The position numbers and the translations under genes are program-made. From positions 10,760-74,759 of the IMG/VR virus record IMGVR_UViG_3300031718_000003: a stretch of DNA of 64,000 bases; one strand, 5' to 3'. Below are positions 13,255 to 62,220 of the stretch, piece after piece. The notes under the pieces are model-generated. The model ran no database searches. It worked only from the letters and a program-made list of their open reading frames with translations, and was not told where the DNA came from. This stretch comes from a virus. The stretch's first letter is position 1. Every line of letters begins with the position of its first letter.

Positions 13255-13301
13255 GGCTTTTTTGTTCCTTTTTCAGACATTCCCATTTAGACTGTAAAGC
13301 G

Positions 13302-20187: not shown

Positions 20188-20267
20188 GCGGGAGGTCCCT
20201 GCTTATCCGGGGACAAGGCTGAGTATCCTGCTGGCCTGTGGTCAAATCCGCCGTTTGCGCCTGATCC

Positions 20268-43910: not shown

Positions 43911-45710
43911 GTGACTGACCTAATGCTAAAGATCTCAGACGATCTCTCTTTGCCAAGAAATGCTGTAACCGAAAAACTGGCATGGATCGGAAGGACTGGT
44001 TCTGGGAAAACCTATGGAGCCACGAAAGCGGCTGAGCAGATGCTCGCTGCTGACGCTCAAGTCGTTACTCTCGATCCTGTTGGAGTGTGGTACGGATTGC
44101 GTCTGGCTGCGGATGGTAAATCTCCAGGGCTGACATTGCCAGTATTCGGCGGCCTCCATGGAGACATTCCGCTTGAGCCCGGAGTTGGTGCGATGATGGC
44201 CGATTTAATCGTAGATCGTGGTCTATCTGCTGTTCTGGATGTGAGCCAGTTTGAACACGACACCGAGAAGGCGCGATTCGCCGGCGACTTCGCTAGCCGC
44301 TTCTTCTTCAGGAAAAAGGCGCGGCCATCTGCCGTTCATATCTTCATTGAGGAAGCGCAGGAATTTTGCCCGGAAGAGCCGCGACGAGGAGAAGAGAACA
44401 TGGTGCATGCGTTCACCCGCATGTGGAAACTCGGGCGTAACTTTGGCATTGGCGGCTCCCTAATTACGCAGAGGCCGCAGGAAGTTAGTAAGAAGGTGCT
44501 GAACCTGGCGGAATGTGTTTTTGCTTTTCAGTTAACGGGTCCCCATGAGCGTAAGGCACTAGAAAAGTGGATAGCGGAAAGAGGCATCGACGAGGATATC
44601 GGGGCGATTCTGCCGAAACTCACGGTCGGGCAAGTTCGCGTCTGGAGCCCTGCATGGCTAAAGATATCGAAGACGATACAGATTTTACCCAAATCTACGT
44701 TCGACGCATCGAGCACTCCGGGAGTCGGCAAGCGTGCGGCCGTACGAGAACTCGCACCGATCGATCTTGAAAGATTGCGCGTCGATATGGCCGCGACCAT
44801 CGAAAAAGCCAAGGCTGAAGACCCGCGTGAGCTGCAACGCCAGGTCCGCGAGCTGAAAGCGAAGATCGCGCAGATGGATAAGGCCGCACCGGTTACGAAA
44901 GGCGGCGCGCCGGCAGACGCGGAACAGTTAAAGCGCGAATTCGACCGTGGGGCGAATTCAGTGAAGGGCCTCCTGGCTAAGGAGCTGCGCGCCTGCTCGA
45001 AGACCGCTGCAGCCATCCAGCCCGCAACGCTTGCCGCACTGCGCGACATGGCGGCAGCGGCGGCACGGGCCATAACACATGTCGAGCAAGTCCAGATGCC
45101 ATCCATGCCGAGCCTCGAAGGTGTCATCGAGCAAGCGAAGGCAACACGCTCGCCAGCGGTTCTCCCGGTGCGCACAAAAGTTCCCGTGGAGCGCACGAAA
45201 ATGGCCGCCGCGAACGGAGAGGCATCCAAAATCGGCAATACCGGTCTTCGGCGCATGCTGATCGCTCTCGCGCAGCGCCGTAACGGGATCTCCACCAAGC
45301 AGCTTGGGGTGCGAGCGGGGATCTCTAGTAAAAGCGGAACCTTCGGGACATACCTCGGGCGTGGAAGGGCCAATGGCTGGATCGCGGGAGAACGCGGGCA
45401 GTTGAAAATAACCGAGGCGGGAGTTGCGGCGCTGGGAAATTACGAGCCGCTTCCGGAGGGTAGGGAACTGCTGGAATATTGGCTGAACGAATTAGGGGAT
45501 AGCGGGGCCGGGCGCATGCTTAGCGCGCTCGCTGAACGCTACCCGCAGGGTTTTACGGCGGAGGAGCTGGGGAAACAAGCGGATATCAGTTCTGCGAGTG
45601 GCACGTTTGGGACGTACCTGGGGAGATTGCGGTCGTTGGAGCTGATTAGTGGGTCGAGGAGTGAGTTGAAAGCTAGTGATGAGTTTTGCCTATGGCTTCG
45701 GGGTCGGTAG
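43911..45710 (+). CDS. HerA/FtsK-like (DUF87) ATPase with tandem C-terminal wHTH-like repeats
   Basis: Walker A GRTGSGKT, Walker B IFIEEAQ, ITQRPQ; SGTFGTYLG appears twice. Confidence 0.85.
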   Translation: MTDLMLKISDDLSLPRNAVTEKLAWIGRTGSGKTYGATKAAEQMLAADAQVVTLDPVGVWYGLRLAADGKSPGLTLPVFGGLHGDIPLEPGVGAMMADLIVDRGLSAVLDVSQFEHDTEKARFAGDFASRFFFRKKARPSAVHIFIEEAQEFCPEEPRRGEENMVHAFTRMWKLGRNFGIGGSLITQRPQEVSKKVLNLAECVFAFQLTGPHERKALEKWIAERGIDEDIGAILPKLTVGQVRVWSPAWLKISKTIQILPKSTFDASSTPGVGKRAAVRELAPIDLERLRVDMAATIEKAKAEDPRELQRQVRELKAKIAQMDKAAPVTKGGAPADAEQLKREFDRGANSVKGLLAKELRACSKTAAAIQPATLAALRDMAAAAARAITHVEQVQMPSMPSLEGVIEQAKATRSPAVLPVRTKVPVERTKMAAANGEASKIGNTGLRRMLIALAQRRNGISTKQLGVRAGISSKSGTFGTYLGRGRANGWIAGERGQLKITEAGVAALGNYEPLPEGRELLEYWLNELGDSGAGRMLSALAERYPQGFTAEELGKQADISSASGTFGTYLGRLRSLELISGSRSELKASDEFCLWLRGR

Positions 45711-45793
45711 TCCGCTCTATCAGCGGGCGTTCGTTTGCGCCTGATCCCTCGACCACAGGAGCGCAACAGTTAAAATGAGGGAGATTAGTAAAA

Positions 45794-47530
45794 ATGGCCG
45801 TGGAAACGAAAACTTATATCGCTTATACTTACGGCTGCCCCCAGCCCAATCACCAGGTATTTAATTATGCCTTGGCCGAGATGCGCCGCCGCAACGATCT
45901 CTGGAACAAACTAGTCGAAATAGATCGCCGATTTCGCCTAGCTTCCTGGAATATCTATGCGGATGTCCCCGAACAGAAAATCGCCGATGAGTTGGCGGGC
46001 GTGATCAGGGCGTGGCGCGAAGAACTCAAGGGCCGCCGGCAAAAGGCGCGCCGCCGCGTGGATGCCACGGATCTCGTGGAAAAGATCAAAACTGCGAAGA
46101 TGGAATTACGAGTCGCCTCTAAAACCGCTAGAATTGCCCGCCGTGCGGCCATCGAACGAAACCGGGCGGCGCTGAAGACCCTGGACGAATTACGCCGGTC
46201 CGAAGTCAATAAGGCGTGTCTTGCGAGCAATCTCTACTGGTGTAACTGGGATGAAGTGCTCGCAAAATACGAAGTAGCGCGAGTTCGCGCCATGAAGGCC
46301 GGGGTACTGCTACGTTTTCATGCATGGAGCGGCGTTGGAAAACTCACTGTGCGGTTCCAAAAAGGGCTCGCTTCCGATCTGGTGTTTGGTGGGGATACGA
46401 GATTGCAAATCGATCCCGTCAACAGTGACGCCTGGAATTCCCCGGCGCGCAGTGTCCGCGGAAAAAGTATGTATACAAAAATTCGTATACGCATGGGATC
46501 ACACAATCGCAAACCTGTATGGTTCGAAGCGCCCATGGCGATGCACCGCCCGTTGCCGGAGAGAAGCGTGATCCGCACCGCCGCGATCGCCTCCGAGCAG
46601 ATCGGAGGCGTTTTGCGCTGGCACGTCATCCTAACGCTTGAACTGCCATCTGCGCGTCAGGCGAGGATCGGTCCGGCGGTAGGTGTAGATATCGGATGGC
46701 GCTTACTGCCTGGAAGGCTGCGGGTCGCATACTGGGTCGATGAATATGGCGGCAAAGGCGAAATCGCGCTCTCCGACTCCATTGTCTCGCAATTCGCAAA
46801 AGTACGGGATCTTGATGCAATCTTGGGAAATCATTTCGAACTCGCAAAGGTAAAACTTGGTGCGTGGCGCGCGGGGTATTTCGAACCGCTGCCGGAATGG
46901 CTCAATCTCACCCGTATGGATCAGTGGAGAGATCAGCGCCGGTTCTATGAGCTTTGGACACTCTGGAAGGATTCCCGATTTGCTGGCGACACTTATGGAT
47001 TCGATACCGTATCCGAGTTTGCCGAGCGCTACGCTCATTTGCGGAACTGGCGCGAGAACTTACAGGATCAGGTCATCGCCCGCAGGAAGGACACGTACCG
47101 GAAAGCCGTATGCGATCTGCTCCGGAACCACGGGGACGTGTTTCTTGAGAAATTCGATCTTCGCAACATCGCTGAAACACCGGACCCGGAGACGAGTCCC
47201 ACAGTAGTAGTAATGGATTCGGCTCGCCGCCGCGTGATTGCCGCGCCTGCGAGTTTGCGTGAGATGCTGGTCCATAAGGGCCAGTGGATGGAGGTTCCAG
47301 CACCGGGGACCACGCAGGAATGCGCCTGGTGCGGTTATGCCGCTGCCTGGGATGCGGCCCCAAGCATACTGCATCGTTGTGGAGGATGCGGAAAGCTCTG
47401 GGATCAGGATGAGAATGCAGCAGTCAACATCCTGCGGCGTGGTTTAGCGCAGATTGGGAGGGATTGGAAGCCGGAATTCGATCCGCGAAAAGCGGACGGG
47501 ATGGAAGTGGCCGAAACCGTTGCGGGTTAA
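45794..47530 (+). CDS. cas12m: Type V CRISPR effector, Cas12m (V-M / C2c4 / V-U1)-like
   Basis: 578 aa, Arg-rich helical REC region, RuvC motifs VGVDIGWR / FLEKFDL / WDQDENAA, Zn finger CAWC..CGGC; array begins 14 nt downstream with Cas12m-like repeat layout (CCCAGCT...GGGCGAAGG...AGAC). Confidence 0.82.
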   Translation: MAVETKTYIAYTYGCPQPNHQVFNYALAEMRRRNDLWNKLVEIDRRFRLASWNIYADVPEQKIADELAGVIRAWREELKGRRQKARRRVDATDLVEKIKTAKMELRVASKTARIARRAAIERNRAALKTLDELRRSEVNKACLASNLYWCNWDEVLAKYEVARVRAMKAGVLLRFHAWSGVGKLTVRFQKGLASDLVFGGDTRLQIDPVNSDAWNSPARSVRGKSMYTKIRIRMGSHNRKPVWFEAPMAMHRPLPERSVIRTAAIASEQIGGVLRWHVILTLELPSARQARIGPAVGVDIGWRLLPGRLRVAYWVDEYGGKGEIALSDSIVSQFAKVRDLDAILGNHFELAKVKLGAWRAGYFEPLPEWLNLTRMDQWRDQRRFYELWTLWKDSRFAGDTYGFDTVSEFAERYAHLRNWRENLQDQVIARRKDTYRKAVCDLLRNHGDVFLEKFDLRNIAETPDPETSPTVVVMDSARRRVIAAPASLREMLVHKGQWMEVPAPGTTQECAWCGYAAAWDAAPSILHRCGGCGKLWDQDENAAVNILRRGLAQIGRDWKPEFDPRKADGMEVAETVAG

Positions 47531-47888
47531 CGATTTGCGGAGCCGTTGCAATACCCAGCTCACGGGCGAAGGAAGTGAGACAATCAGTCCGGTTGGTCCC
47601 GATTCAGTCCCGATTCAGGGTTGCAATACCCAGCTCACGGGCGAAGGAAGTGAGACGATAGACACGGCAGCATCGAAAACGACACTAAATATGTTGCAAT
47701 ACCCAGCTCACGGGCGAAGGGGTAGTGGGGTCTTTTGAATTTCCACCGTCTTGATTTTCAGTCATGCTGGAATTGTGATTCCTCCGGCGTTTCCTCACTT
47801 GCTGCCTCGCTTTCCCGGCGTCCCGTGGCGCTATCCGCGACCGCTCCCGCAGGTATATCCTTGGAAGGCTCCAAGGAGAGCAAGAGCC

Positions 47889-48692
47889 ATGACGATAGCG
47901 GTCGGGGTCCTGGCAGGTGATGGGGTGGTGTTAGCAGCGGACACGGAGTACACGTGGGGCTATCTCAAAACGAGCGGAGAAAAGATATGGACCGCTGAAG
48001 GCCACGGAGCCTTGGCCATTGCGGGCGCTGGCAATGGTGCGTACTTGTCCGCAATCGCTCAGCAGATGATTGATGCGTTTAAAGCTGCGCCGAAGACGAT
48101 CTCCGTCGAGCGCCTTTACGAGAAATTCTCAGAAATCCTGACAGACTTTCATAGCAAGCATGTCATAAGGTTCGCGCATCTCGGCAGTTCGGTCGCTATT
48201 TCGCTGCTAGTCGCGCTCCAACGAGGCAAGGAGGCGTATCTTTGGGCAAGTGAAAACGATTCCCTGGAGAGATGCGGACCCTATGCGTCCATTGGTTTGG
48301 GCTGCGAATACGCCAATGCCCTTTTGGGTGAGATGTTCGCGGGTACGGCGGTGTCTTGGAAGGCGAGCGTTCCGTTGGCTGAACGCATCGCGGCCTATGC
48401 GGTGTTTGAGACGAAAAACAACGTACGGGAGTGCGGAAAAAAAACCTCTCTCGTCGCCATCCAGAAGGGGCACATTGTGGAAACGAGCGCACAGAAGATG
48501 CTGCTCATTAATTCGCACCTCAATGCGTTTTCTGAGATCCGGATCTTGGGGACGAAATATGCTCTTGGGTTCCCATACCCCGACGCGACAAGTGCGTCAG
48601 AAAAACTCATGGCCTACTTGGGCGGATTGCGGCAAGACGTGCTCGCGATTGAAGGCCAAACCTTCGAAGGAAAAGGGCGGAGTCTTGAATAA
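47889..48692 (+). CDS. Proteasome-beta/HslV-like Ntn-hydrolase protein (IS cargo)
   Basis: M-T-IAVGV...GVVLAADT...KI...AGAG...SIGLG with N-terminal Thr; probable start 47889. Confidence 0.75.
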   Translation: MTIAVGVLAGDGVVLAADTEYTWGYLKTSGEKIWTAEGHGALAIAGAGNGAYLSAIAQQMIDAFKAAPKTISVERLYEKFSEILTDFHSKHVIRFAHLGSSVAISLLVALQRGKEAYLWASENDSLERCGPYASIGLGCEYANALLGEMFAGTAVSWKASVPLAERIAAYAVFETKNNVRECGKKTSLVAIQKGHIVETSAQKMLLINSHLNAFSEIRILGTKYALGFPYPDATSASEKLMAYLGGLRQDVLAIEGQTFEGKGRSLE

Positions 48693-48697
48693 CCTCT

Positions 48698-49546
48698 CTA
48701 GGCGACACGGCTCAGTTCTCTCGTCTCGGACAACGCGACGATCTCTTCGAACGACCACACATGATCCGCGATCCCGGCTGCCATTGCTGGCGTAACTCGT
48801 AGCGTCTGATGGATGCGCGCGAAGTTGTAATACATGTAGTGGAGGGCCACGGCTGCCTCGTGGTTCTCGATCTTCTTTGAAAAGCCGTTCGTCAACCGAG
48901 TGAAGCGGCGCATGGACATCCGCATTGTGAGATTCTGGCGTTCCACATAGCTCGTGCTGATATGCCTTGGTTCGGGATCGCCGAGTCGGATGATCTTCTC
49001 GGCGCCGGTGCAAACCGCAGGGCTGTACCGCTTTTGCGGCTCGGGTTCGTTGCCGAAGTATTTCACGAGCTGCGCGTAATCCACTTCGTCGGCGAAAGCA
49101 TCAATCACGGCGTTGAGGTAAACTTTGTGGCCGTCCGTGGTAAGTTGGACACGATGGGCGAGTTTGCGTTCCAGAGCGGCGATGAATTCCGTGGCGCTGC
49201 CAGCTCCCCTATCGCCCACGAGCCAGCATGGAACAAGCTTGGTATCCGCGTCGATTGCGACCCAGACCCAAGCGTCGCCTACGACGCGCTCTTCGGCCAT
49301 CTTCGTGGTGACGTTCTTCTGCTTGCAGCCGATATAGCTCCAGATCTCGTCACATTGAATACGTCGGCATTTCAGGTTGCGGAAGACGCGGTCCTGATAG
49401 CGGTAGCAGGCGATCCCGACCTCAACGAGGAGACGCGTCACCGGGCGCTTCTCGTGGCCCGTCATGCGGCAGATGGAACGGATGGAATTTCCTTCGACGA
49501 GTGCGGCAATGATTCGGGCGCGTTCTCCGATGCTCAGCCTGTTCAT
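48698..49546 (-). CDS. IS1-family transposase
   Basis: LVEGNSIRSICR HTH, IQCDEIWSY, QLTTDG, STSYVERQNLTMR...RRFTRLTNGFSKK. Confidence 0.93.
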   Translation of the reverse strand: MNRLSIGERARIIAALVEGNSIRSICRMTGHEKRPVTRLLVEVGIACYRYQDRVFRNLKCRRIQCDEIWSYIGCKQKNVTTKMAEERVVGDAWVWVAIDADTKLVPCWLVGDRGAGSATEFIAALERKLAHRVQLTTDGHKVYLNAVIDAFADEVDYAQLVKYFGNEPEPQKRYSPAVCTGAEKIIRLGDPEPRHISTSYVERQNLTMRMSMRRFTRLTNGFSKKIENHEAAVALHYMYYNFARIHQTLRVTPAMAAGIADHVWSFEEIVALSETRELSRVA

Positions 49547-49587
49547 AGGTCTATTATGCGCTAGCGCTCGCGCATAGTCAAGGGGAA

Positions 49588-50061
49588 ATGACGATGGCTA
49601 ACTGGATAGATGAGTTATGCGAGGAGATTCTCCGGGATGGCCGCCACAAAAGCGTGGCGGAGGAATTGCGATTACACCGCGCCGGGGTACTGGAGCAGGA
49701 GGGCCGGTTTTTCTTTGAAGAGCTGAGGCGAGAGGTTAAAGACGGGCTGCCGACCATAGGCACGCGCCTGGGCCTATCCCCAGCGGACCTCCGATTCGAG
49801 GGAAAGGACGATTTCTTCCAGATAACAAACCATTCTCACTACCCAGTGGTCACCGTCAAGGCCGAATACATGCTGAAGCGGGTTTTGCTCAATATCAAGA
49901 GGAAGCAGGCTGATGTCCGCACTCCAGCGGAAGAGACGCGGGATTCTATCGATTTTTGTGTCAAGGCTGACGATGAGCTTTACTTCTGCCACAAAGGAAC
50001 GACACTCCCGGGAATTGATGAGGCGGTAAAATTGGTATTCAGGCCGCTATTTTCCACCTGA
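49588..50061 (+). CDS. Hypothetical protein (IS cargo)
   Basis: 157 aa, divergent from the transposase. Confidence 0.6.
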   Translation: MTMANWIDELCEEILRDGRHKSVAEELRLHRAGVLEQEGRFFFEELRREVKDGLPTIGTRLGLSPADLRFEGKDDFFQITNHSHYPVVTVKAEYMLKRVLLNIKRKQADVRTPAEETRDSIDFCVKADDELYFCHKGTTLPGIDEAVKLVFRPLFST

Positions 50062-50080
50062 TCCTTCAGTGCCCGTTAGC

Positions 50081-50470
50081 CTATTCGCCGGGCTGTTTGG
50101 CTGCTTGTAGCGCTTTGCGCCGGGCCGCCGCCGATACACTATCGATCTCAGACTGAGGCGCGCCATTAGCTTTCAACGCAACGATCCGCAAGGCCTCCGG
50201 CACAGGAATCGCAAGATTCTCGGGTTCCTGATAGAACCGGTCTACGGCTTTTACTAGCTCAACCATGCTGAGCGGTTCTGGAATGTACGGGCGTGACGGA
50301 GAACGAGCTGCCCGTAACCCATCCAGAAAACCGACTAGGTAATTCCCCTTGTCCATGAAAACCTGCCAGTGCCGCCCGTTGCACATGCCATTCGTAAAGG
50401 GCGGAATGGCTGGCTTTTCCTGAGCTACAGAGAGCAGAGTTAACGCAAGCAGAATCAAGGCAGGTTTCAT
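50081..50470 (-). CDS. Secreted hypothetical protein (IS cargo)
   Basis: Signal peptide; NGRHW...YLVGFLDG...VDRFYQEPENLAIPV. Confidence 0.6.
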   Translation of the reverse strand: MKPALILLALTLLSVAQEKPAIPPFTNGMCNGRHWQVFMDKGNYLVGFLDGLRAARSPSRPYIPEPLSMVELVKAVDRFYQEPENLAIPVPEALRIVALKANGAPQSEIDSVSAAARRKALQAAKQPGE

Positions 50471-50727
50471 CGGGGATCTTTACCCGTTTTTCCCCACCGC
50501 GCCTGCGCAGCTCGCTTGGCCGAAGCCTTGCGCTGCGCTGGGCTGAGCCTTGCGTTCAAGGTGGCCGCGCCCTTTAGCCCGCCACGCCGCCCCATTTCGC
50601 GCATGATCTGAGAGACGGTGGAGCGGTCATCGAGATCTACGGGCAGTTCGGAGCCGGTGCTCTTAGCTACGATGGATGCAGCAAACTGATTGATGTCCTG
50701 CGATTTTGTCCGCGTGCGCTTGGGCAT
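50467..50727 (-). CDS. Small basic KGG / histone-H1-like protein (IS cargo)
   Basis: MGRRGGLKGAATLNARLSPAQRKASAKRAAQARW. Confidence 0.7.
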   Translation of the reverse strand: MPKRTRTKSQDINQFAASIVAKSTGSELPVDLDDRSTVSQIMREMGRRGGLKGAATLNARLSPAQRKASAKRAAQARWGKTGKDPR

Positions 50728-52129
50728 GACAGCTTCAAGTATGGCAGGTTACGGGCCAACGTCAAGCCTGTGGAAATTCAAAAGACCCCACTACCGGCGA
50801 AGGAAGTGAGACTAGGAAGCTGTATCCGGCTCCCCGCGTTCACATTCGTTGCAATACCCAGCTCACGGGCGAAGGAAGTGAGACCGATCAGTGCAAGGCG
50901 TACTCGCCGAATCACAAGGGGTTGCAATACCCAGCTCACGGGCGAAGGGAGTGAGACACGAAATCGGCAAGCGGCTCGGAGTGAGCGCGCGGCAGTTGCA
51001 ATACCCAGCTCACGGGCAAAGGGAGTGAGACCTAAACGGCGTTCCAGTTCCGGCGGAATGCACTCCGTTGCAATACCCAGCTCACGGGCAAAGGGAGTGA
51101 GACGTGTCAAGGCGTGGCTGAAAGCAGTCAAGCTGCTCGCCAGTTGCAATACCCAGCTCACGGGCGAAGGAAGTGAGACAGCATCACGACCGTAAGGCCG
51201 GTTGCAATATCCAGCTCACGGAAGAAGGAAGTGAGACGCTCAATCTCATGTCGCTGTGACGCCCGGATAACTGTTGCAATACCCAGCTCACGGGCGAAGG
51301 GAGTGAGACAAGATTTAGAAACAGGTTTAACTGGAAGCAGGAAGGGTTGCAATACCCAGCTCACGGGCGAAGGAAGTGAGACAATATGGTGCTGCTTCGC
51401 TTTTCAGAAGTTGCAATATCCAGCTCACGGGAGAAGGGAGTGAGACGAGACGAAAGAATCGCAGCAACAGCGGGGGTGGGGGTATTGCAATACCCAGCTC
51501 ACGGGCGAAGGAAGTGAGACTATTATGCCCCTCGGCATGTGTGAAAAGACCAACCGTAGTTGCAATACCCAGCTCACGGGCGAAGGGAGTGAGACCGTTA
51601 AAAGCATAGGCTAGGGGAAGACGGATTTTCGTTGCAATACCCAGCTCACGGGCGAAGGGAGTGAGACCGGAGCATATCCCGCTGAAGGTTCTTTGGAACG
51701 GAGTGTTGCAATACCCAGCTCACGGGAGAAGGGAGTGAGACTCGGCAGATTTCCAGCGGGACCAAAGCCCGCAGAGCGGTTGCAATACCCAGCTCACGGG
51801 CGAAGGGAGTGAGACACATCTTGAGGGTTTCACGACAGAAGAGATGCCAACAGGTTGCAATACCCAGCTCACGGGCGAAGGAAGTGAGACAAACAAGTGC
51901 CCAGGTCAACAAAAATGTTTGGGGAGTTGCAATACCCAGCTCACGGGAGAAGGAAGTGAGACGTGGTCAACCGTTCCGAACGCAAACGGCGGACCGCTGA
52001 AGGCAGAGCCGGGCTGACCCAGGAAGAATTATGTGTGCGTTGCCAATTGGGGTCAAATGGGTCTTCATCCGGCCAGCGATCATACAAGAAAATGTCATCC
52101 TGTAAATTCACGGCATAGCTTGGCATAGT

Positions 52130-52486
52130 TCACCGCTGCTCCTTTCGGAAATCGGTCAGACGTTTCTTCCGCCCAGCCAAAAAGCCATCGTCACCATCAG
52201 CCTTTCGAAATCCAGCCGGGACTCCCCACAAACGGAAATGCTCCTCGAGCGCCGCCCAGAATGAGCTAACCGGAGATCGCGGTTCCGGGCCGGTCCAAAC
52301 CTTGCTCTGATCAAATCGCAGCCGGTTGTGAAAGCGGTAATCTTCGGACCTCTGGAGTTTCCGTAGTGGTTCATTTTTAAGCTTGTCGCGCAACTCCTCT
52401 TGCATCTGAGCCAGTGGAATTTTCGGTGTGGATTTACTGCCCCGCGGGCGTCCTCGAACGGGTTTGGCCGTAAGTTGCGGTAGCAT
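52130..52486 (-). CDS. Hypothetical protein with AT-hook motif
   Basis: RGRPRGSK. Confidence 0.45.
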   Translation of the reverse strand: MLPQLTAKPVRGRPRGSKSTPKIPLAQMQEELRDKLKNEPLRKLQRSEDYRFHNRLRFDQSKVWTGPEPRSPVSSFWAALEEHFRLWGVPAGFRKADGDDGFLAGRKKRLTDFRKEQR

Positions 52487-52492
52487 AGCAGC

Positions 52493-54883
52493 TCAGAACG
52501 TCACTACCGAACCAACATTCACAACGTTCCCCAAAGTTACCGTTACCCCCGGACCCGCAGCCGATGACGAGACCACCAACTGGATTGGGGACACTTGCTG
52601 GAATCCACAAGCGTTGGTAGCCGTGATCGTTAAGTTGTAGACGTTAGGCAGTGTTGGCGTCCAGGTGAATACACCGCTACTGCTGATGCTGGCGCCGCCT
52701 GGAAGTATCCCCGTCCAAGTAATCGGGCTGTCGCCCGTAGCGCCAAATGTAATACTGTATGGACTGGCAACGAACCCTGAAGGTAATGGGCTAGTCGTAG
52801 TAATGACCGGCAACGTGCACGTCGTCAGCGACTCGGTAGATGACGGGTTGCCATTCGTCGAAGTTACCGACACGGTGAATGTCGATGTGCTCGGAGACGT
52901 GCCGCTAGGCATTCCGCTCACCACATTCCCCGACAAGGAAGCCCACCCCGGTAGTGAGCCACTCGTGATACTCGTGGATGGGGACGGGCAACTAGCGCTG
53001 GGCACGGTCACGCTGTAAGACGAACCAATATGGGCGCTCGGAAAGCCGTTGATCTGACAGGTACTTGCCTCGTAAGCTCCTACGGACGGTGGACTTGGCC
53101 GTACGATTCCCGCAAAATCAGCGATGGATTCCAGAACAGCCGTGCCACCCGCAAGTGCTGGACTGCTCGACTGTAATGTGAGGTCCCCCGTAGCCGGGCT
53201 GGTGTATTGTGGGTCCGTGATCGTGCCGAACGTTGCAGCTTGCAGTGTGCTCCCCGGAGTTCCCAGTGAGTAGAAGATATTATTGCTGGACCCGGCCATC
53301 AGGGTGAGCTGCTGGGCATTCGTAATTCCGCCGCAGATATAAACGTTCTGCAAGCTGGTATTGGTGTAGGAGAGTTGGGAAATGATGTTGTTGGTGTAAA
53401 GCCGCGTGACGCCTGGCTGATTGCCTTGGTCATAAATGCCACAGTCGGAATTTTCGCTGATGGAGTTTAGCGCCGATCCGGTGTCGTAAAACGAATTGTT
53501 GTAGATCTGAACGGTTCCCGTAGCCGTCGTCAACCCATAGGCTTTATACGAGAAACCACAATGTGGATCGGTGGCTGATCGGCCCGCTTCTAAGCCTAGC
53601 CCTACGTGGGAGACGACGTTATTGAACACCTTCACGTACCCCAAATTCGGCACAATCGTGCTCAGGTTAACGCCACAGCCGCTGATATCTGAAATTTGAT
53701 TGTCGTGGATTGAGATGTTGTAGAACCCGCCTCCAGGGGGATGAAGACTTGCCTGCTGGCTGTCATCGTGGATCTGGATTCCGTTGTATGCCCGTGTGTT
53801 GTAGATGTGGTTCCAGCCAAACTCAATAGGCGTGCCATCATTGCAACAGGCGGCATACATGGCGTGAAACGTTTTGCTCGATCCGGGAGACATATTCGTG
53901 CTAACGTTGTGTACTTGATTTCCGAAGACCACGGAATTTCCGCCGGGATGGTCGATGGCGCTTGCGGATTGATCGCAGTAGGCGCACTGCACATCGTTGT
54001 TAACAACGCGCAGATTCTTCATATCTCCCAATGCGATACCGGCTCCCGCCGAAGAGCAGGCGTTACCAGTGCAACCTTTTGGCTGATTCGCTCCATTGGC
54101 GTACAAACCGGATACCACCAGCCAGACACCGGTAGCACCGTCAGCTCGTATCCCATAAGCGGAAGTCCCTCCAGAGAGGCCGCCGCCAAGAGTTGCCGTG
54201 CCTCCCGGACGCCCCATAATTGTGACTGGATTCGTAGCAGTCCCGCTTACGTCGCCAATTGTTAGAGACGCGTGCCATCCTCGGCCATCGTAATACGGGT
54301 AGCTTACGCCGTTCAGGAATACGAGGGTGTCTCCAGCCACCAGGCAGCGATAGTAGGTGAAAGGCGTGTAGGTGTTCGTATAGGAATACGGACCCACCTC
54401 CGTCGTTGATGTGACGCTGTTCTGAAGTCCAAACGGATGCGCATAGCTCCCGTCGAACGTGGTTCCGCCTCCCCCTGTAGGGTAGACATGCGACGCCAGG
54501 GCGGTCGCGCACGTACTTGTGGGAACGCTGTTATCGACGCCTGGTCCAACGAAGTAAATGTGCCCGGTGCGTGCCGTCCATGTTGGCCCTGTTGCGGTGC
54601 TGCCACCCACTGTGACTGTAATCGCTCCAGTTGTCACAGACCCAACCTGGACACCGATCTGGACATTGGACCACGTGAGAACCTGAGCAACGGCAATACC
54701 GTTGATTGCGACTGAGGACGTTCCTTGCGAAGATCCAAAGTTATTTCCACCGATTGTCAGGTACGTTCCGTTATTGTTTTCACCGCCGGTAGTGGCCCCC
54801 GAGGTCTGGTCAACCCAGAAAATAAGAGGCGCAGCGGCCTGGAGGCTCACAGCAAGTAGGAATGCTAGAAATAGTCGCTTCAT
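52493..54883 (-). CDS. Large secreted-type protein: IPT/TIG, beta-helix and Ig-like domains
   Basis: Signal-like N-terminus, LTIGGNNFGSSQG (IPT), Asn-rich beta-helix repeats, LQSSSPA..G...P.VGAYE, ITTTSPLPSG Ig repeats. Confidence 0.75.
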   Translation of the reverse strand: MKRLFLAFLLAVSLQAAAPLIFWVDQTSGATTGGENNNGTYLTIGGNNFGSSQGTSSVAINGIAVAQVLTWSNVQIGVQVGSVTTGAITVTVGGSTATGPTWTARTGHIYFVGPGVDNSVPTSTCATALASHVYPTGGGGTTFDGSYAHPFGLQNSVTSTTEVGPYSYTNTYTPFTYYRCLVAGDTLVFLNGVSYPYYDGRGWHASLTIGDVSGTATNPVTIMGRPGGTATLGGGLSGGTSAYGIRADGATGVWLVVSGLYANGANQPKGCTGNACSSAGAGIALGDMKNLRVVNNDVQCAYCDQSASAIDHPGGNSVVFGNQVHNVSTNMSPGSSKTFHAMYAACCNDGTPIEFGWNHIYNTRAYNGIQIHDDSQQASLHPPGGGFYNISIHDNQISDISGCGVNLSTIVPNLGYVKVFNNVVSHVGLGLEAGRSATDPHCGFSYKAYGLTTATGTVQIYNNSFYDTGSALNSISENSDCGIYDQGNQPGVTRLYTNNIISQLSYTNTSLQNVYICGGITNAQQLTLMAGSSNNIFYSLGTPGSTLQAATFGTITDPQYTSPATGDLTLQSSSPALAGGTAVLESIADFAGIVRPSPPSVGAYEASTCQINGFPSAHIGSSYSVTVPSASCPSPSTSITSGSLPGWASLSGNVVSGMPSGTSPSTSTFTVSVTSTNGNPSSTESLTTCTLPVITTTSPLPSGFVASPYSITFGATGDSPITWTGILPGGASISSSGVFTWTPTLPNVYNLTITATNACGFQQVSPIQLVVSSSAAGPGVTVTLGNVVNVGSVVTF

Positions 54884-54898
54884 TGTTGTGGTCCTCCG

Positions 54899-56902
54899 TT
54901 ACTTCATAAAGCCGTTGTTTAAAATCGCATTATTCAGAACTGCTCCTGATGTGCCAGCAGGAGCCAGCGGCACATAAGCGCCGCACGTCATGTAGCCAAT
55001 CTGCGAAGACCCTGGCAATGCGCCAGGCGTCCCCGCCTGAAACGCGCCGCTCGTGTTCGTGATGGTGTAGTTGTCGTTGGCATGCGTCGGGTCTGCGTAG
55101 GGATTGGAAGTCAGGATGACGTCGTTGTGGTTGCGGTACGGGTAGGCGTTTGCAGCTTCCGTGATTCCTTCGTCTGAGTAGTTCAGCAGTGGCGTAGCAA
55201 CACTCCAATAGCAATTTCCATCCGCCAGCGCGGACGCCCGAAAGCCCGCCGAGGTCCACGCCTCGATACCCACGGTGGCATTTGTAATCAGGTTGTTGCG
55301 CGCGTTGAGAAGCGTGGCAGAGCCAGTAACGTGCCCCACAATAGCCACGTTGCAGCCGTCAAGGGTGTTATTAAAAATGCTGGTATCCACAACAAACGAA
55401 ATGCAGTTGTTGCTGGTGCCGTTGTTGTAGATCTTGTCGAACTCTATTAAAACCGAGCCATTCGTACCGGCAAGAGAAACAGGAAGGCAACTGTTCCCGT
55501 GAATGGAACTGCGGATGACGTTGTTCCCTTGTATAGAACCGGAATTGCTTATTCCCGCCGTGCACCCGGATTGCCCGTTCAAGATTTCGCTTCCTATGAC
55601 GCTGGTAGTATTGCCAGTGATGCTGATTCCGGTTGCGGTGAAAGTGTCGCACTTGATGTTGTGGAACAATACGTTGGAACCGGAAACCGCCGCGCAAGTC
55701 CCCACGGTGTTCGTGCCAGTGCCGTCGATGTGGAAATTTTCGATATCATACCCGCCGCCGGAGACCGTTAAGATGGTCTCGCCCGTGCTTCCCGGCTGTA
55801 TATCGACGCACGTACCGCAATTGGCGCTGGGGGTTTCCGTCCGGCTCGAAGTATACCCGATGATGCGAAATGGAGGTACAGTACTGGAGATCGTGTTCGA
55901 AGTCGCCAGCGTAAATGTGCTGCTCGCCGGAAGCGTCATCGTGCCGGTGGCTTTTACGAAGGCGGTGTTGCCAGTCACCGCCGCAGCCGCCAGCCCGGTC
56001 AGCGAGGCCAGCGCACCTCCCATGTTTGACGAAACGCTGCCAGTGCCGAGGGAGAACACGCTGCCGGGAGTGGTACATAACGGCACTGAGCCGTTCACCC
56101 CCCAAGCGCTCGAAGTCTCCGATATGATCTGGTAAGCCCCGGGCGCGATACCGGAAATGCCTGGCGGCACTTGTAAGATGTTTCCCAAATCAGCCGAACT
56201 CGGGGTATACCCGCTATTGAAAGTGATCGTGCTAGCTGTCGTGCAGGTGGCATTGGTTGTGATCGCAACTTGCGCTCCGGCTTGCTGGCTATAGTCCACG
56301 CCAGGGTACACACTCCAGCCGCCGCTTGAAGCCGATAGCTGCCCAGCCGCCAGTGGCAACACGGCTTCAGATCCTGATGACGAGATGATCTGGTAGAAGC
56401 CGAGGTTAAAACTCAGCGTAGCAGCGGCCAATGGAGTGGACGCGCACCCGGTCGGCGTCACGGTGACCGTGGGAATAGTCGTGTAGCCGGTATTCGTTCC
56501 ACTGACCGTGTAGCCGGTAACGACGCCACCGGAGACAGCGACTGTGATGGTTGCATTGCCACCTGCCGTCGCCGTGGCGCTCGTACACCCGGACCCGCCG
56601 TTATTCGCGCCGACGGTTTGCACGCTGTAGATCGGGCTGGAAGTGATCTTGATGTACTGCATCGCGTTGCCGGCGAACGTGCCGTGCCCGGAGCTGCTGA
56701 TGTTGGTGTTGGTAGTGGCGTCTATGGCCAAATCGGTTCCGGTTGTAGGCGTACCGACGCCAATCGAGAACCCGCCGCCGTTGGTATCGCTACCAACCGT
56801 TGGCCGGACTTCCCAAATCGTGTTAGCCGCAATCGCGGCAAAGAGTCCTCGCGGAAAGAATGTAACAGCGATCAGGAATACGGCGAGAATTTGTTTACAC
56901 AT
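54899..56902 (-). CDS. Tail or surface protein with beta-helix repeats
   Basis: 667 aa, T/S/G/N-rich, WEVRPTVGSDTNGGGF N-terminal motif. Confidence 0.7.
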   Translation of the reverse strand: MCKQILAVFLIAVTFFPRGLFAAIAANTIWEVRPTVGSDTNGGGFSIGVGTPTTGTDLAIDATTNTNISSSGHGTFAGNAMQYIKITSSPIYSVQTVGANNGGSGCTSATATAGGNATITVAVSGGVVTGYTVSGTNTGYTTIPTVTVTPTGCASTPLAAATLSFNLGFYQIISSSGSEAVLPLAAGQLSASSGGWSVYPGVDYSQQAGAQVAITTNATCTTASTITFNSGYTPSSADLGNILQVPPGISGIAPGAYQIISETSSAWGVNGSVPLCTTPGSVFSLGTGSVSSNMGGALASLTGLAAAAVTGNTAFVKATGTMTLPASSTFTLATSNTISSTVPPFRIIGYTSSRTETPSANCGTCVDIQPGSTGETILTVSGGGYDIENFHIDGTGTNTVGTCAAVSGSNVLFHNIKCDTFTATGISITGNTTSVIGSEILNGQSGCTAGISNSGSIQGNNVIRSSIHGNSCLPVSLAGTNGSVLIEFDKIYNNGTSNNCISFVVDTSIFNNTLDGCNVAIVGHVTGSATLLNARNNLITNATVGIEAWTSAGFRASALADGNCYWSVATPLLNYSDEGITEAANAYPYRNHNDVILTSNPYADPTHANDNYTITNTSGAFQAGTPGALPGSSQIGYMTCGAYVPLAPAGTSGAVLNNAILNNGFMK

Positions 56903-56903
56903 G

Positions 56904-59900
56904 TTAGTTCAAAACCTCCACAATCAATTGCCGTGCGGTGAAGCTATTGCTTGCGCTAGCTGCCGAGAACGTCACAGTTGTTTGCAGGAACAAAGCGCCA
57001 GTAGAGTCTATGGCGCTCACAGTCGCAGTGTTGGTATCAGCGAACAGGGAATCAGCGGTAAGGTTTGTCGTACCGAGATCTATCCCAAGCAGCCCATGGG
57101 ATTCATAGGCTGACGTAGCGCCTGCTGTCTGGGTCGTGATGTATCCAGTTAGGTTGGCTGCTAGATTTGTCACCGCCGTGGCCGAAGTTGCGGTGGACGT
57201 GACACTTAATGGAACGATGCTTGACCCGGTAGCGCATCCGGATACTGTGCAAAGCTTTACAGCCAGCGTTACCGTGGGAGCTGAAGTCACAACGTTCGAG
57301 TAAGTGCCCGCCAACCATACCTTGAATGTTCTGCCGGCTACGTTCAACAGATTGGCATTCAGAGAAACCGCCATCAAGTTCTGAGCTGTGGAGACGTTGG
57401 CGCTAACTGTGACCGGAGTGACGTTCACGGCGGCTACACGGCTGACCGGCATCGCGCCGGTGTTGTTGTTGTTGACCTCGACGGCGTGCTGCGCGGAGAT
57501 CGCTTGAAGATTGTCCTGACCTGTTGATGGAGTTCCGGCGGTTCCTTCAGTCAGGCACACCGGGCCGCCTCCGGTGCCTGGAGTAGCGCAGCTTGGCGGG
57601 CTACCTGCCGATACCGGGCCGTTCGGCACTGCTAGCCCTGCCGTATCCCCAATAGTGTGAACGTTCGCGGTGGTGATGCCTTCGTCATCCAATGAGTTTG
57701 CCGCCGTCGTAGCGCTGGCGGCTTTGATCAGGTAGCCGGTCGTGAGTCCGCTCAATCCTCCACCGCCAATCGACCCCCACGTGTTCGTCGCCGTGCAGCC
57801 TTTAAACCCAGCGCTTGTGCTGTTGAATTCGATTTGCCCAGTGGAACAGGCGCCGGGGTCTGCGGAGTGATTTGGCAGCCGTACGTCTACCGCTGTGTTC
57901 GAGAAGTCTTGCAGGCCAGTCGAGTACGTATTGGCTTGATTGTTTAAAACTACAGCGGTTTTAAGGTACCCGGCATCATCGATCAGATTCGTGGACGCGT
58001 TGATGCTGAGCACGTGATTTGCGGTAAACGTGCTGCTTGGATTCAGCAACGGCCAGACTGCGGCAGTCGCGTTGTTCCACGAGCATACCGGGATATGCGT
58101 GGTGGAATTTCCGTAGCAGCCATCCACCGTGGCCACCGGAAATCCTGAAAGGGTAGCGCTCGTCTCTCCAAAGAAAAATCCGCCGCCGCCTACGATGGCA
58201 GACAAAGCTGCAGCAGGGTTGCCGGCCTGCACGGGACCGTTAGTAGCCGCAATGCCGGATGACCCGGCATAGGCCAATTGGTTACCCACATCACTCAAAT
58301 TGGCATTACTGGCTATTGATCCACCTAGAGGCGACCACAAATAATGACCCGCTGTAACTGAAGTTGGATATGCCACCGACGCCAGACCAGCCGGTATCTG
58401 GAACCACGTTGCTTGATATGTGTTGCCCGTCGGCGTCAAAGGGAATGTCATTGCCCAGCCGTTACCTGTGCCGCTCGGTGGGGTCGTGGGCAGTAGGTAT
58501 GCAGCAGACGTTACAATCGCGCCTGTGCCTACGCCCCACCCTAAAAACCCGCTCGGGTTCGCGGCGAAGAAGGCAGTTGGCAATGACGACTGCGCGCCCC
58601 AAAATGTGAACCCCGCCAGAGATCCAGCACCGATCGTTTCCGAAGACGCTCCGGCCATGTTATTGCTCGCGTCAATGGATACGCCGGATGCAACCACATC
58701 CCCGGTCGCGTTAAACTTCGGCACTGCGTTCGCTGTGAACGGCGCAATCGCGCTGGCAATCTGCGTTCCAGCGGTCCCGCTTTTCAGCGCTGAAGCTAAA
58801 TTGCTGTTTACCACTACGCCTGGCTGCAACGTAGTGACGGTAGAGCCACCAGCGTTAGCCACCGCGCCGCTCAAAGCGGGCATTGCTGTGCCTGATAGCA
58901 AGCCATTGGAATCTGTGGGCGGGATGACTGCGCTCCACCAGTTCCCCGCATCGCTCCACCAGATAGCGCACTCCGGATTTCCGCCCGATGCCGCACCCAG
59001 AAGGCTGAGAACTACGTTGCCATTCACCGTACTGGTTGTTGGCGTGTCCGTGGCTGGAACGCTGCCAGTATTGCAGTGGATGAATGAAAAATGATCCCCG
59101 AACCCTGCTGCTCCGACTTGTGGCACGGTAACGTTCGTTTGCGAAGTATTATTGGTCGTCTGAAATACAGCGCCGCGATCCGTGTTCGGAACCGTGGGAC
59201 TTGCGCCGGATTGCGCATCCACATAGGTAGTCGGCGTGTAATCCACCAAGCGAAACATGGAACCGGCGTTGTCCCATTGAATCCAGTAGCCATGTGGTCC
59301 GGGTTGAATCCGCCCCGCAGATGGTTGCAGCCCGTTCGGTGTCATAACGTTAAACGCGCCCAACGCACAGACGTTTAGAGTCGGCTGTGTGGACGTATTG
59401 GCGGTATCCACACGAAGGAAGAATTGCTGCTGGTCGGTAAGAGCAGTGAGAACCGGACTCGGGCAAGCAGCGTAATTAGTTGTGCCATTGATCGAAGTGA
59501 GCGTGTTCCAGGCGCCGGCCTGCAATGTCACAAGGCTTGGAATGACCGCCGTATTGACGGCCAAAGCTCCACTGGCAACAGCCAGCCCGAATGCATAGGG
59601 CAGCTCCGCGCTAATGGAAGAGCCCGAGGAGTGAAATGTCACGTTGAGATTCGACGATCCCGCTGCGGGGGTCGCGGCGTTGAAATTCGGGCTGGGTACG
59701 GACGAACCATTGACGCCCACCGCCGCGGTGCCGGTGGTGTTCTGGTTCAGGATCGGGAAATCGGCGGCGACGGCGATCACCGTGGTGTCGAGCGTGGTTC
59801 TCTTGACGATGCCGGTCGCGCCGGGATCGGCCAGAGCAGCGCTCGGTGGCGCGTGGCAACTGCCATCGGCCCCTAGGTAAAGAGTGCCCGAGCAGTTGGC

Positions 59901-60683
59901 GAACAGGCCGATCACGTCGGCAGCCAAAGCGTCCGAGATCGCGCCCGTGGCCGTGGTGTTCTTCACGATCCCGGTACCGAGCGCTGGCCAGTTCTGATTT
60001 GCCGTGCCGAGTGTGAGGGTCGCGGTATTCGGTACGCCCGTGCCGCCGTTGGCCGGCGGGTTGACGCCTGTGATGCTCGCTGAGGTGCCGGTCGAGTTCT
60101 GGTTCAGAATCGGAAAATCGGAGGCGGCGGCGATCGATGGGGTGCCGGCCGTATTCTTCAAGATTCCGGTAGCGAGCGAGCTGAGCGCCGTCCCGTTTAA
60201 TTGATTCGCGTTGATGATGCCGGTGCCGGAGAAGGTAAATGATCCGCCAGATCCCACGGCGAGCGCCGCGCCATTCGTGCCTGCGAGGATATTGGCCCAT
60301 GCCGTGGTTGCCGCGCCGGAGCAACTGCCGAATGCGATGGGGCCGCCATTGGTCGACGTCACACAGTAGGTTCCGGTGCCGCTCGTGCCGGTGGTCGCGA
60401 GCCCGGCGCCATTCCAGTAGGCCGCCCCGTTGAGTGATGGATTGGGAACGGTTGCGCCACCGATGGCCGTCCAGGTGCCCGGACTCTGCCTGTTGGCGGA
60501 GGCGGTGCAGGCGTAGATGTTCTGTCCTGGTGCTGCATCGGTGATATAGGCGAGCTGTGGGGTCTGGCAGGCTTGGGCGAATACCTGGGCTGAGGGGCCA
60601 ATCTGGGAGAAGATCAGACTGCTTCCGGTTTGCTGAGCCAATAGAGATAGAGGGAGTAATAAGAATGCGACAAGGATTTTCAT
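56904..60683 (-). CDS. Tail fiber-like mosaic protein
   Basis: 1259 aa, A/G/S/T-rich, internal repeats (DFPILNQNxTGT twice, TGIxKxT three times). Confidence 0.75.
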   Translation of the reverse strand: MKILVAFLLLPLSLLAQQTGSSLIFSQIGPSAQVFAQACQTPQLAYITDAAPGQNIYACTASANRQSPGTWTAIGGATVPNPSLNGAAYWNGAGLATTGTSGTGTYCVTSTNGGPIAFGSCSGAATTAWANILAGTNGAALAVGSGGSFTFSGTGIINANQLNGTALSSLATGILKNTAGTPSIAAASDFPILNQNSTGTSASITGVNPPANGGTGVPNTATLTLGTANQNWPALGTGIVKNTTATGAISDALAADVIGLFANCSGTLYLGADGSCHAPPSAALADPGATGIVKRTTLDTTVIAVAADFPILNQNTTGTAAVGVNGSSVPSPNFNAATPAAGSSNLNVTFHSSGSSISAELPYAFGLAVASGALAVNTAVIPSLVTLQAGAWNTLTSINGTTNYAACPSPVLTALTDQQQFFLRVDTANTSTQPTLNVCALGAFNVMTPNGLQPSAGRIQPGPHGYWIQWDNAGSMFRLVDYTPTTYVDAQSGASPTVPNTDRGAVFQTTNNTSQTNVTVPQVGAAGFGDHFSFIHCNTGSVPATDTPTTSTVNGNVVLSLLGAASGGNPECAIWWSDAGNWWSAVIPPTDSNGLLSGTAMPALSGAVANAGGSTVTTLQPGVVVNSNLASALKSGTAGTQIASAIAPFTANAVPKFNATGDVVASGVSIDASNNMAGASSETIGAGSLAGFTFWGAQSSLPTAFFAANPSGFLGWGVGTGAIVTSAAYLLPTTPPSGTGNGWAMTFPLTPTGNTYQATWFQIPAGLASVAYPTSVTAGHYLWSPLGGSIASNANLSDVGNQLAYAGSSGIAATNGPVQAGNPAAALSAIVGGGGFFFGETSATLSGFPVATVDGCYGNSTTHIPVCSWNNATAAVWPLLNPSSTFTANHVLSINASTNLIDDAGYLKTAVVLNNQANTYSTGLQDFSNTAVDVRLPNHSADPGACSTGQIEFNSTSAGFKGCTATNTWGSIGGGGLSGLTTGYLIKAASATTAANSLDDEGITTANVHTIGDTAGLAVPNGPVSAGSPPSCATPGTGGGPVCLTEGTAGTPSTGQDNLQAISAQHAVEVNNNNTGAMPVSRVAAVNVTPVTVSANVSTAQNLMAVSLNANLLNVAGRTFKVWLAGTYSNVVTSAPTVTLAVKLCTVSGCATGSSIVPLSVTSTATSATAVTNLAANLTGYITTQTAGATSAYESHGLLGIDLGTTNLTADSLFADTNTATVSAIDSTGALFLQTTVTFSAASASNSFTARQLIVEVLN

Positions 60684-60783
60684 AAAAACTTTTATGGCTT
60701 CGGGGTCAGACAGGAGCTGCCCTGGGCCGCCAACGTTTGCGCCTATGGCTGGGTGCGCTACGATGTACAGGGAGGGCGGACCG

Positions 60784-62058: not shown

Positions 62059-62220
62059 TTGGTTCTTATTCTAGCGCACTGAGGATCAGGCGCAAACGGC
62101 GGATTTGACCACAGGCCAGCAGGATACTCAGCCTTGTCCCCGGATAAGCAGGGACCTCCCGCGTGCCAATGGCCAGCGACAACCACTCACCCCGAAGAAA
62201 AAAGAAATATCCTGAATTTT

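What the first reader, a model, noticed from the sequence alone, without database searches (positions are those of the whole stretch)
45696..52026. Whole Cas12m + array module is bracketed by an inverted pair of the bipartite element
Seen: a + copy (45696-45742) overlaps the last codons of the HerA-like gene and ends 51 bp before cas12m. A - copy (51978-52026, with a degenerate A arm) starts 15 bp after the last repeat. Inference: the CRISPR-Cas unit was acquired, or can be exchanged, as one cassette of the repeat system, so cargo could range from nothing to several kb.
Basis: partly seen in the sequence, partly recalled or inferred. Interest (0 to 1): 0.85.

Follow-up and report, generated by a model that had tools for sequence, protein, structure and literature searches.

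The report
Phage Cas12m unit between boundary repeats
A soil phage carries a complete Cas12m CRISPR unit that sits exactly between two inverted copies of a short repeat, but that repeat marks gene-block borders all over the genome, so the flanks belong to the phage and are not shown to be ends that move the CRISPR unit.

Summary
Both repeat copies are real members of a bipartite family of about 50 nt, with 39 full copies in the 74.8-kb phage, and the stated distances are exact.

- An inverted (+,-) bracket is common: 12 of 38 intervals between consecutive copies have it.
- Each flanking copy abuts a neighbouring gene block by its A box. The left copy supplies the last four codons and the stop of the HerA/FtsK-like gene. 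The B boxes face the module.
- Such B-to-B junctions are usually short, and 7 of 12 hold no called gene. The empty pair at 6990-7096 aligns with both flanks and has one base where the 6.2-kb module stands. So the module occupies an inter-module junction slot.
- The arms do not travel with cas12m. None of 111 loci with Cas12m homologues carries the repeat, and other phage Cas12m modules are not flanked by inverted repeats above control.
- There is no target-site duplication, the two arms are no more alike than random copies, and cas12m composition matches the backbone.
- No close relative could be fetched, so no empty orthologous site or alternative cargo was seen.

Best reading: accessory cargo in a repeat-marked junction, probably placed or exchangeable by recombination at these repeats (inferred). 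What the repeat itself does remains unresolved.

The parts
43911..45710 (+). HerA/FtsK-like P-loop ATPase gene, last gene of the rightward block. Its last four codons and stop lie in the A box of the left repeat.
   Evidence: PADLOC HerA E=1.5e-14 and PHROG 2666 E=3e-19. Homologues align only to residue 592-593 of 599.
45696..45755 (+). Left copy of the bipartite repeat. A box 45696-45705, variable core, B box about 45727-45743, extension to 45755. The A box faces HerA and the B box faces the module.
   Evidence: nhmmer E=2e-13. 83% identical to 6990-7049.
45749..45776 (+). Sigma-70-like promoter match (TCGACC, 16 nt, TAAAAT) spanning the repeat's distal flank and the start of the module. This is a consensus match only.
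   Evidence: 9 of 12 positions
45794..47530 (+). cas12m (578 aa), type V-M effector
   Evidence: PDB 23vw_A Cas12m E=5.7e-110. PADLOC Cas12u1 E=1.8e-102. Pfam Cas12f1-like_TNB.
47545..47720 (+). CRISPR array, proximal part: two full 37-nt repeats and the first 28 nt of repeat 3
47721..50795 (.). IS1-family element, 3,075 bp, with passenger genes, inserted in repeat 3. It has 26-bp perfect terminal inverted repeats and an 8-bp duplication GGCGAAGG. It is a later nested insertion and not part of the repeat system.
   Evidence: Sequence. Pfam DDE_Tnp_IS1. Transposase homologues up to 95% identical. An identical copy lies in another context in run X2.
50796..51962 (+). CRISPR array, distal part: the last 17 nt of repeat 3, then 16 repeats and their spacers
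51975..52025 (-). Right copy of the bipartite repeat (B-box variant ..GTTTGCGTTCGGA, degenerate A box). The B box faces the module. The A box faces the 3' end of the leftward tail block (stop of 52130-52486, 104 nt away).
   Evidence: nhmmer E=7e-9
52130..60683 (-). Leftward tail block (118, 796, 667 and 1259 aa) that converges on the module
   Evidence: Gene calls. Pfam He_PIG and DUF5123 in the 796-aa protein.

Best explanation
The stretch is a complete type V-M CRISPR-Cas12m unit without adaptation genes. It consists of cas12m followed 14 nt later by a 19-repeat array, which was later split by an IS1-family element. It lies in the gap between two convergent gene blocks of a roughly 75-kb soil phage.

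The two flanking repeats are ordinary members of a lineage-specific bipartite repeat of about 50 nt (A box CTTCGGGGTC, about 25 variable nt, B box CCGCCGTTTGCGCCTG) that punctuates the whole genome.
- Copies abut genes by the A box. The left copy even encodes the end of the HerA-like gene.
- The B boxes face away from the gene block, and here they face the module.
- A-inward intervals hold the core blocks (capsid, terminase, HerA pair, tails).
- B-inward intervals are the back-to-back junctions between blocks, and most hold no called gene.

The Cas12m unit is therefore accessory cargo sitting in one such junction.

Inferred steps:
- It was placed there, and could be swapped among phages of this lineage, by recombination at or between the repeated junction sequences.
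- The repeats themselves are protein-recognised boundary sites of the phage and not ends carried by cas12m.

Once expressed, Cas12m with its crRNAs binds matching DNA and blocks transcription without cutting it. This is a family property taken from the literature.
For: - Identity of the unit.
- Size and spread of the repeat family.
- Polarity: the A-side distance to the nearest gene boundary has a median of 58 nt against 206 nt on the B side (Wilcoxon p=7e-4). 20 of 38 A sides lie within 60 nt of a boundary, against 10 of 38 B sides.
- Interval types: 10 of 11 A-inward intervals hold genes, while 7 of 12 B-inward intervals hold none and measure 10-427 nt.
- Paralogous empty junction: the pair at 6990-7096 aligns with both flanks and has one base where the module stands. 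The joint 45755->51975 is the same paralogue.
- The arms are not linked to cas12m: 0 of 111 homologue loci carry the repeat. In other phages, 4 of 46 Cas12m+array modules show any flank-to-flank match, equal to the shifted control of 4.
- The repeat is a lineage trait: 21 copies in the distant relative G001 (proteins 36-59% identical) and 4 in G004, which shares three of them with G001. It was not seen as a host repeat in 301 sampled Acidobacteriota-class genomes.
- cas12m GC (56.2%) and codon use match the backbone.
Against: - No orthologous empty site, alternative cargo or second context for the module was found, so the placement history is inferred.
- The exact central position, with only 38 nt and 12 nt of non-repeat DNA at the two ends, is also what a true cassette mechanism predicts.
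- The function of the repeat is unknown. Single copies have no conserved fold, and the box spacing does not fit a simple sigma-type promoter.
- Gene calls for small ORFs are my own and uncertain, which affects the A-side and B-side statistics.
- Two B-inward intervals hold several genes, so 'junction' is a tendency and not a rule.
Confidence: 0.55

Rival explanations
1. This would be a true module-exchange system run by a site-specific recombinase. The bipartite repeats are asymmetric recombination sites. Modules with A sides inward and modules with B sides inward alternate, as C and D dif modules do. The Cas12m unit is one 'B module' that the phage's small tyrosine recombinase can invert, delete or exchange.
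For: - The sites are asymmetric and two-armed with a variable middle, and alternation exceeds random expectation (23 of 38 intervals alternate).
- Empty modules exist, as they do in dif-module plasmids (PMC13141974).
- Left and right halves of the variable core assort independently (r=0.03), and some copies share one half only.
- The best-conserved protein between the two repeat-rich phages is a 214-aa tyrosine recombinase, 60% identical, with the Tyr nucleophile present.
Against: - The arms are about 25 nt apart, not the 6-8 bp of known tyrosine-recombinase core sites, and there is no dyad symmetry.
- There are 13 (+,+) runs, mostly one copy upstream of each gene.
- No rearranged variant was seen in three soil runs (contigs only).
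- The recombinase reads K where the second catalytic Arg is expected.
- An unrelated phage carries a single copy and no such recombinase.
- No module was found in two contexts.
Confidence: 0.2
2. The pair would act at the RNA level. Inverted copies pair to form long processing or termination stems. Adjacent pairs form intergenic hairpins. Here the two copies would pair across a HerA-cas12m-array transcript and delimit the precursor. The module simply landed in the loop of a former hairpin.
For: - Empty pairs fold into long hairpins (-45.8 and -53.9 kcal/mol, z -2.7 and -7.3), with a perfect 12-16-bp B:B' stem.
- All genes and the array between the two copies, except those of the nested IS, are on the same strand as HerA.
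- The single copy in an unrelated phage lies between convergent genes, next to a stop codon.
Against: - Most copies are solitary and show no fold of their own (mean z +0.44 over 54 copies; RNAalifold finds nothing).
- Exact box sequences are conserved between phages whose proteins are 36-59% identical. Pairing alone does not require that.
- The hairpins are not followed by U tracts.
- No RNA data are available.
Confidence: 0.12
3. This would be a transposon bounded by terminal inverted repeats, like a large MITE, with A boxes (GGGG tips, as in Tn3-family ends) as outer termini and cas12m+array as cargo. The short pairs would be empty miniature copies.
For: - The geometry of (+,-) pairs, with sizes from 107 bp to 6.3 kb.
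- The A box contains GGGGTC, reminiscent of Tn3-family tips (from memory; not tested).
Against: - There are no direct repeats flanking any of the eight pairs examined (flanks).
- Partner arms are no more alike than random copies.
- The majority of copies are solitary.
- The only transposase inside belongs to the nested IS1, which has its own ends and 8-bp duplication.
- A boxes overlap stop codons of long conserved genes.
Confidence: 0.05

Closest known systems
dif modules bounded by pdif (XerC/XerD) sites in Acinetobacter plasmids (PMC13141974, PMC6449649)
   Same: - Asymmetric two-armed sites in alternating orientation.
- Two kinds of module, depending on which arm faces inward.
- Modules that carry accessory genes or nothing.
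- No target duplication.
   Different: - pdif sites are 28 bp with a 6-bp spacer and are served by host XerC/XerD.
- Here the arms are about 25 nt apart, runs of same-orientation copies are common, and the host genome is a phage.
- No module has been seen in two contexts, and no recombination has been shown.
PeSL (promoter-early stem-loop) regulatory cassettes of T4-type phages (PMC2839356, PMC4122927)
   Same: - A short conserved motif repeated at borders of accessory genes.
- Proposed there to drive modular shuffling by recombination between copies.
- A backbone feature and not ends carried by the cargo.
   Different: - PeSLs are a sigma-70 promoter plus a terminator stem-loop, in direct orientation.
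- These copies show no stem-loop of their own, no clear promoter, and occur in both orientations.
Phage-borne type V-M CRISPR-Cas12m loci (Cas12m: PMC11013384, PMC10442227)
   Same: - A 578-aa effector with full-length similarity to solved Cas12m.
- An adjacent array and no cas1/cas2 between the flanking repeats.
- 72 IMG/VR viral loci encode homologues.
   Different: - The nearest homologue is only 49% identical.
- The array is split by an IS.
- One spacer matches the phage's own small-terminase-like gene.
- The unit sits in a repeat-marked junction, which other loci do not show.
Integron gene cassettes with attC sites
   Same: The idea of promoter-poor accessory units delimited by conserved-end, variable-middle sites.
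   Different: - attC sites are internally palindromic, lie in direct orientation at cassette 3' ends, and need IntI plus attI.
- None of this is seen here.
Phage 'morons' at gene-block borders (from my own knowledge, not tested here)
   Same: A self-contained accessory unit between backbone blocks, at a convergent junction.
   Different: Morons are defined by their own promoter and terminator. Here only a weak promoter match exists, and the borders are a repeated phage element.

Membership tests
Type V-M CRISPR-Cas12m | Effector homologous over its full length to characterised Cas12m | tested here: met
   23vw_A E=5.7e-110 over residues 4-548; Cas12m2 8hio E=2.4e-29; PADLOC Cas12u1 E=1.8e-102
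Type V-M CRISPR-Cas12m | Adjacent CRISPR array on the same strand, with no tracrRNA or adaptation genes needed in the locus | tested here: met
   19 repeats of 37 nt start 14 nt after the stop codon. Only cas12m, the array and the nested IS lie between the flanking copies. A tracrRNA was not searched for.
Type V-M CRISPR-Cas12m | DNA binding without double-strand cleavage, leading to silencing | not testable with these tools
   Family property from PMC11013384 and PMC10442227. RuvC-like D299, E452 and D537/D539 are invariant in 15 homologues.
TIR-bounded transposon or MITE | Target-site duplication flanking the two ends | tested here: not met
   Flanks of all eight (+,-) pairs were inspected and none shows a direct repeat.
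TIR-bounded transposon or MITE | The two ends of one element are more alike than ends of different copies | tested here: not met
   The variable cores of partner arms are unrelated. The most similar copies lie 7-17 kb apart.
dif-module-like site-specific module system | Asymmetric sites in alternating orientation, giving two module types | tested here: inconclusive
   23 of 38 intervals alternate, but 13 are (+,+) runs.
dif-module-like site-specific module system | Core site of two recombinase-binding arms around a 6-8-bp spacer | tested here: not met
   The arms are separated by about 25 variable nt, and A start to B end spans 44-46 nt.
dif-module-like site-specific module system | The same module found in different backbones or positions | tested here: not met
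   0 of 111 loci with Cas12m homologues carry the repeat. No close relatives were available.
PeSL-type regulatory cassette | Promoter plus terminator stem-loop within each copy | tested here: not met
   No consensus structure. Mean fold z is +0.44. The box spacing does not suit -35/-10. Promoter activity itself was not tested.
PeSL-type regulatory cassette | Gene-content differences between close relatives map to the copies | not testable with these tools
   No close relative was retrievable. G001 shares only 5-8 genes at 36-59% identity.
Integron cassette (attC) | Internally palindromic site, direct orientation, IntI-type integrase | tested here: not met
   The A and B boxes are not complementary. 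Copies occur in both orientations. The recombinase has only 214 aa.

The most novel reading that the evidence does not exclude
The bipartite repeats would be the crossover sites of a phage-borne module-exchange system. This system would be a long-spacer analogue of dif modules, served by the conserved 214-aa tyrosine recombinase. A-inward core modules would alternate with B-inward accessory slots. The Cas12m-CRISPR unit would then be a slot-borne module that can be inverted, lost or passed between co-infecting phages of this lineage.
Probability: 0.15. Interest if true: 0.85.

Novelty: new variant of a known kind. Interest (0 to 1): 0.5.

Why it matters
Phage genomes are mosaics, but the sequences at which blocks are exchanged are rarely visible.

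In this phage a dense, polar repeat family marks block borders, and a whole RNA-guided silencing system sits in one of the border slots. If the slots are real exchange points, they would show how a phage gains or sheds a CRISPR unit as one piece. They would also give a testable site, and possibly an enzyme, for modular exchange.

If they are only regulatory punctuation, the finding reduces to an ordinary accessory locus at a convergent junction.

Tried and rejected
The contexts of the closest Cas12m homologues and the 91.6-kb contig that holds the identical protein could therefore not be fetched.
- Relatives sought through the HerA-like protein in IMG/VR and metagenomes gave only 41-50% identity without repeats, plus a 1.1-kb fragment at 73%.
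- Relatives sought through the 667-aa tail protein: none.
- Relatives sought through the small recombinase: only G001.
- Single-sequence Cas12m scans of the viral and genome collections found nothing. INPHARED gave one 30% hit.
- Sequencing runs: no RNA holder was listed.
- In the contig lay-out, the apparent deletion joint 45755->51975 is the paralogous pair at 6990-7096 of the same phage. It is not an empty orthologous site. The joint 43922->51972 has only 22 nt on one side and was disregarded.
- The host-repeat idea gave chance-level single matches in 3 plus 301 genomes.
- A hairpin-terminator reading of single copies was rejected. The terminator-like hairpin in the 45696 copy is not shared by the family.
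- An ECF-sigma promoter reading was considered because a sigma-like gene is conserved. The position 16-17 nt after GCAAAC falls in the most variable part, and the boxes are about 30 nt apart.
- A foreign-composition test of cas12m was negative.
- Covariation between the arms (G>C with C>G in copies 35806 and 38950) rests on two copies only and was not pursued.
Full report
**Setting.**
The window is bases 10760-74759 of a single 74,759-bp virus record with 58% GC. It encodes the following:
- a portal, a scaffold protein and a large terminase;
- a small-terminase-like HTH protein;
- a 214-aa tyrosine recombinase and a sigma-like protein;
- a TnpB-like protein, Gam and an exonuclease or annealing protein;
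- an HNH protein, a HerA/FtsK-like ATPase, large tail proteins and an endolysin.

Three soil metagenome runs hold it. Named homologues of the IS transposase, at 70-77% identity, come from Bryobacteraceae and Acidobacteriia bins. This is only a hint at the host.

**The observation.**
- The repeat is CTTCGGGGTC (A box), about 25 variable nt, then CCGCCGTTTGCGCCTG (B box). A start to B end spans 44-46 nt.
- A profile search gives 39 full copies and about a dozen half arms in the genome. The + copy scores E=2e-13 and the - copy, with its damaged A box, E=7e-9.

**What lies between the copies.**
- The 578-aa protein is Cas12m: 23vw_A E=5.7e-110, Cas12m2 E=2.4e-29, PADLOC Cas12u1 E=1.8e-102.
- D299, E452 and D537/D539 are invariant among 15 homologues.
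- A 37-nt-repeat array starts 14 nt after the stop codon.
- Repeat 3 is interrupted by a 3,075-bp IS1-family element (47721-50795) with 26-bp perfect ends and an 8-bp duplication. The array then runs on to 51962.
- Nothing else lies between the two copies. Non-repeat DNA at the two ends amounts to 38 nt and 12 nt.

**Is the bracket special?**
- Not by orientation. 12 of 38 consecutive intervals are (+,-).
- The family is polar with respect to genes. The A side lies a median 58 nt from a gene boundary and the B side 206 nt (paired Wilcoxon p=7e-4).
- About 20 copies read B-to-A into a start codon 14-60 nt away.
- About 7 copies follow a stop codon by 0-20 nt reading A-to-B. These include the left copy here, whose A box encodes the last four residues and the stop of the HerA-like gene. 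Homologues of that protein stop aligning at residue 592-593.
- Intervals with A boxes inward hold the core blocks (10 of 11 contain genes). Seven of 12 intervals with B boxes inward hold no called gene and measure 10-427 nt.
- The module therefore lies outside the two neighbouring A-inward blocks, in a B-to-B junction, where a rightward and a leftward gene block converge.

**A paralogous empty junction.**
- Region 6976-7049 aligns with 45682-45755, and 7051-7075 with 51975-51999. The 6.2-kb unit stands where the pair at 6990-7096 has a single G.
- The contig lay-out reported the same thing as a joint 45755->51975 with 'G' between. I read this as that paralogue and not as a deletion variant.
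- Empty pairs leave 14-19 nt between CGCCTG and CAGGCG, with no fixed junction sequence.

**Do the arms belong to cas12m?**
- No. The nearest Cas12m homologue is 49% identical.
- 72 viral and 39 genomic loci with homologues were fetched, 1.5 Mb in all. None has a repeat copy.
- Among 46 other phage modules with an adjacent array, flank-to-flank matches occur no more often than in shifted controls, 4 against 4.
- cas12m matches the backbone in GC and codon use.

**Where else is the repeat?**
- There are 21 copies in one 37.6-kb viral contig, G001. It shares only a handful of proteins at 36-59% identity, the best being the small recombinase at 60% and the sigma-like protein at 39%.
- A 14-kb contig, G004, carries 4 copies. 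Three of them score exactly as three G001 copies do, so I take it to overlap G001; the two sequences were not aligned.
- One isolated copy lies in an unrelated 75-kb phage, between convergent genes, with its A box 1-2 nt from a stop codon.
- It is not a repeat in 301 sampled Acidobacteriota-class genomes.
- The boxes are thus more conserved than the proteins. This points to recognition by a protein, although none has been identified.

**What the repeat is not.**
- Single copies have no shared or unusually stable fold. Only adjacent inverted pairs fold, as any palindrome does.
- No target duplications flank the pairs, and partner arms are unrelated in their cores.
- The box spacing does not suit a -35/-10 promoter.
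- Left and right halves of the core assort independently, and a few copies share one half only. This is modest evidence that copies recombine with one another.

**Verdict.**
The bracket is real, but it reflects the position of the module in a genome-wide system of boundary repeats. It does not show that the unit has ends of its own. The data support 'cargo in a junction slot'. They leave open whether the slot is an active exchange site, with dif modules and PeSLs as the closest models, or merely the permissive gap between two blocks. No comparative evidence could be obtained, because this phage has no close relatives in the collections that could be searched.

Noticed in passing
window 47721-50795: An IS1-family element with passenger genes sits in CRISPR repeat 3. 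The passengers are a proteasome-subunit-like ORF at 47889-48689 and three small ORFs. It has perfect 26-bp ends and an 8-bp duplication GGCGAAGG. A 100% identical copy lies in a different context on a 5.4-kb contig of soil run X2, so the element seems to be active in that community.
   Followed up: partly
window 50958-50994 vs 12939-12973: One array spacer matches the phage's own small-terminase-like HTH gene (35 of 37 nt exact by BLAST).
   Followed up: partly
window 12427-12463 and 13302-13338: Two identical solitary copies of a variant CRISPR repeat flank the small-terminase-like gene, about 35 kb from the array.
   Followed up: no
window 20138-20276 and 62074-62212: This is a long variant of the repeat, with about 75 extra nt between the arms. 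It is present twice in inverted orientation at 94% identity, and one copy lies just upstream of the sigma-like gene.
   Followed up: no
window 12224-12408 and 30018-30202: A 185-nt direct duplication (97% identical) begins right after a repeat copy. Its first 44 nt recur a third time at 13258-13301, just before the second solitary CRISPR repeat.
   Followed up: no
L130 297-357 (G002:C1:60541-60585; also G003): A single well-formed copy of the bipartite repeat lies in an otherwise unrelated 75-kb viral contig, between convergent genes. That contig has no homologue of the small recombinase or the sigma-like protein.
   Followed up: partly
window 17152-17793; L016 4095-4751: A 214-aa tyrosine recombinase consists of the catalytic domain only. 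It reads K where the second catalytic Arg is expected (HALKHSR). It is the best-conserved protein between the two repeat-rich phages, and it is inverted relative to its neighbours in this phage but not in G001.
   Followed up: partly
window 38950-39000 and 35806-35856: Two copies share the same pair of substitutions, CTTCCGGG in the A box and GTTTGGGCC in the B box. The copy at 38950 lies inside the exonuclease/annealing-protein ORF instead of between genes.
   Followed up: no
window 60745-61251: A rightward ORF with a weak DUF6197 match fills the B-inward pair 60698/61225 between leftward tail and lysis genes. It runs through the whole right-hand copy.
   Followed up: no
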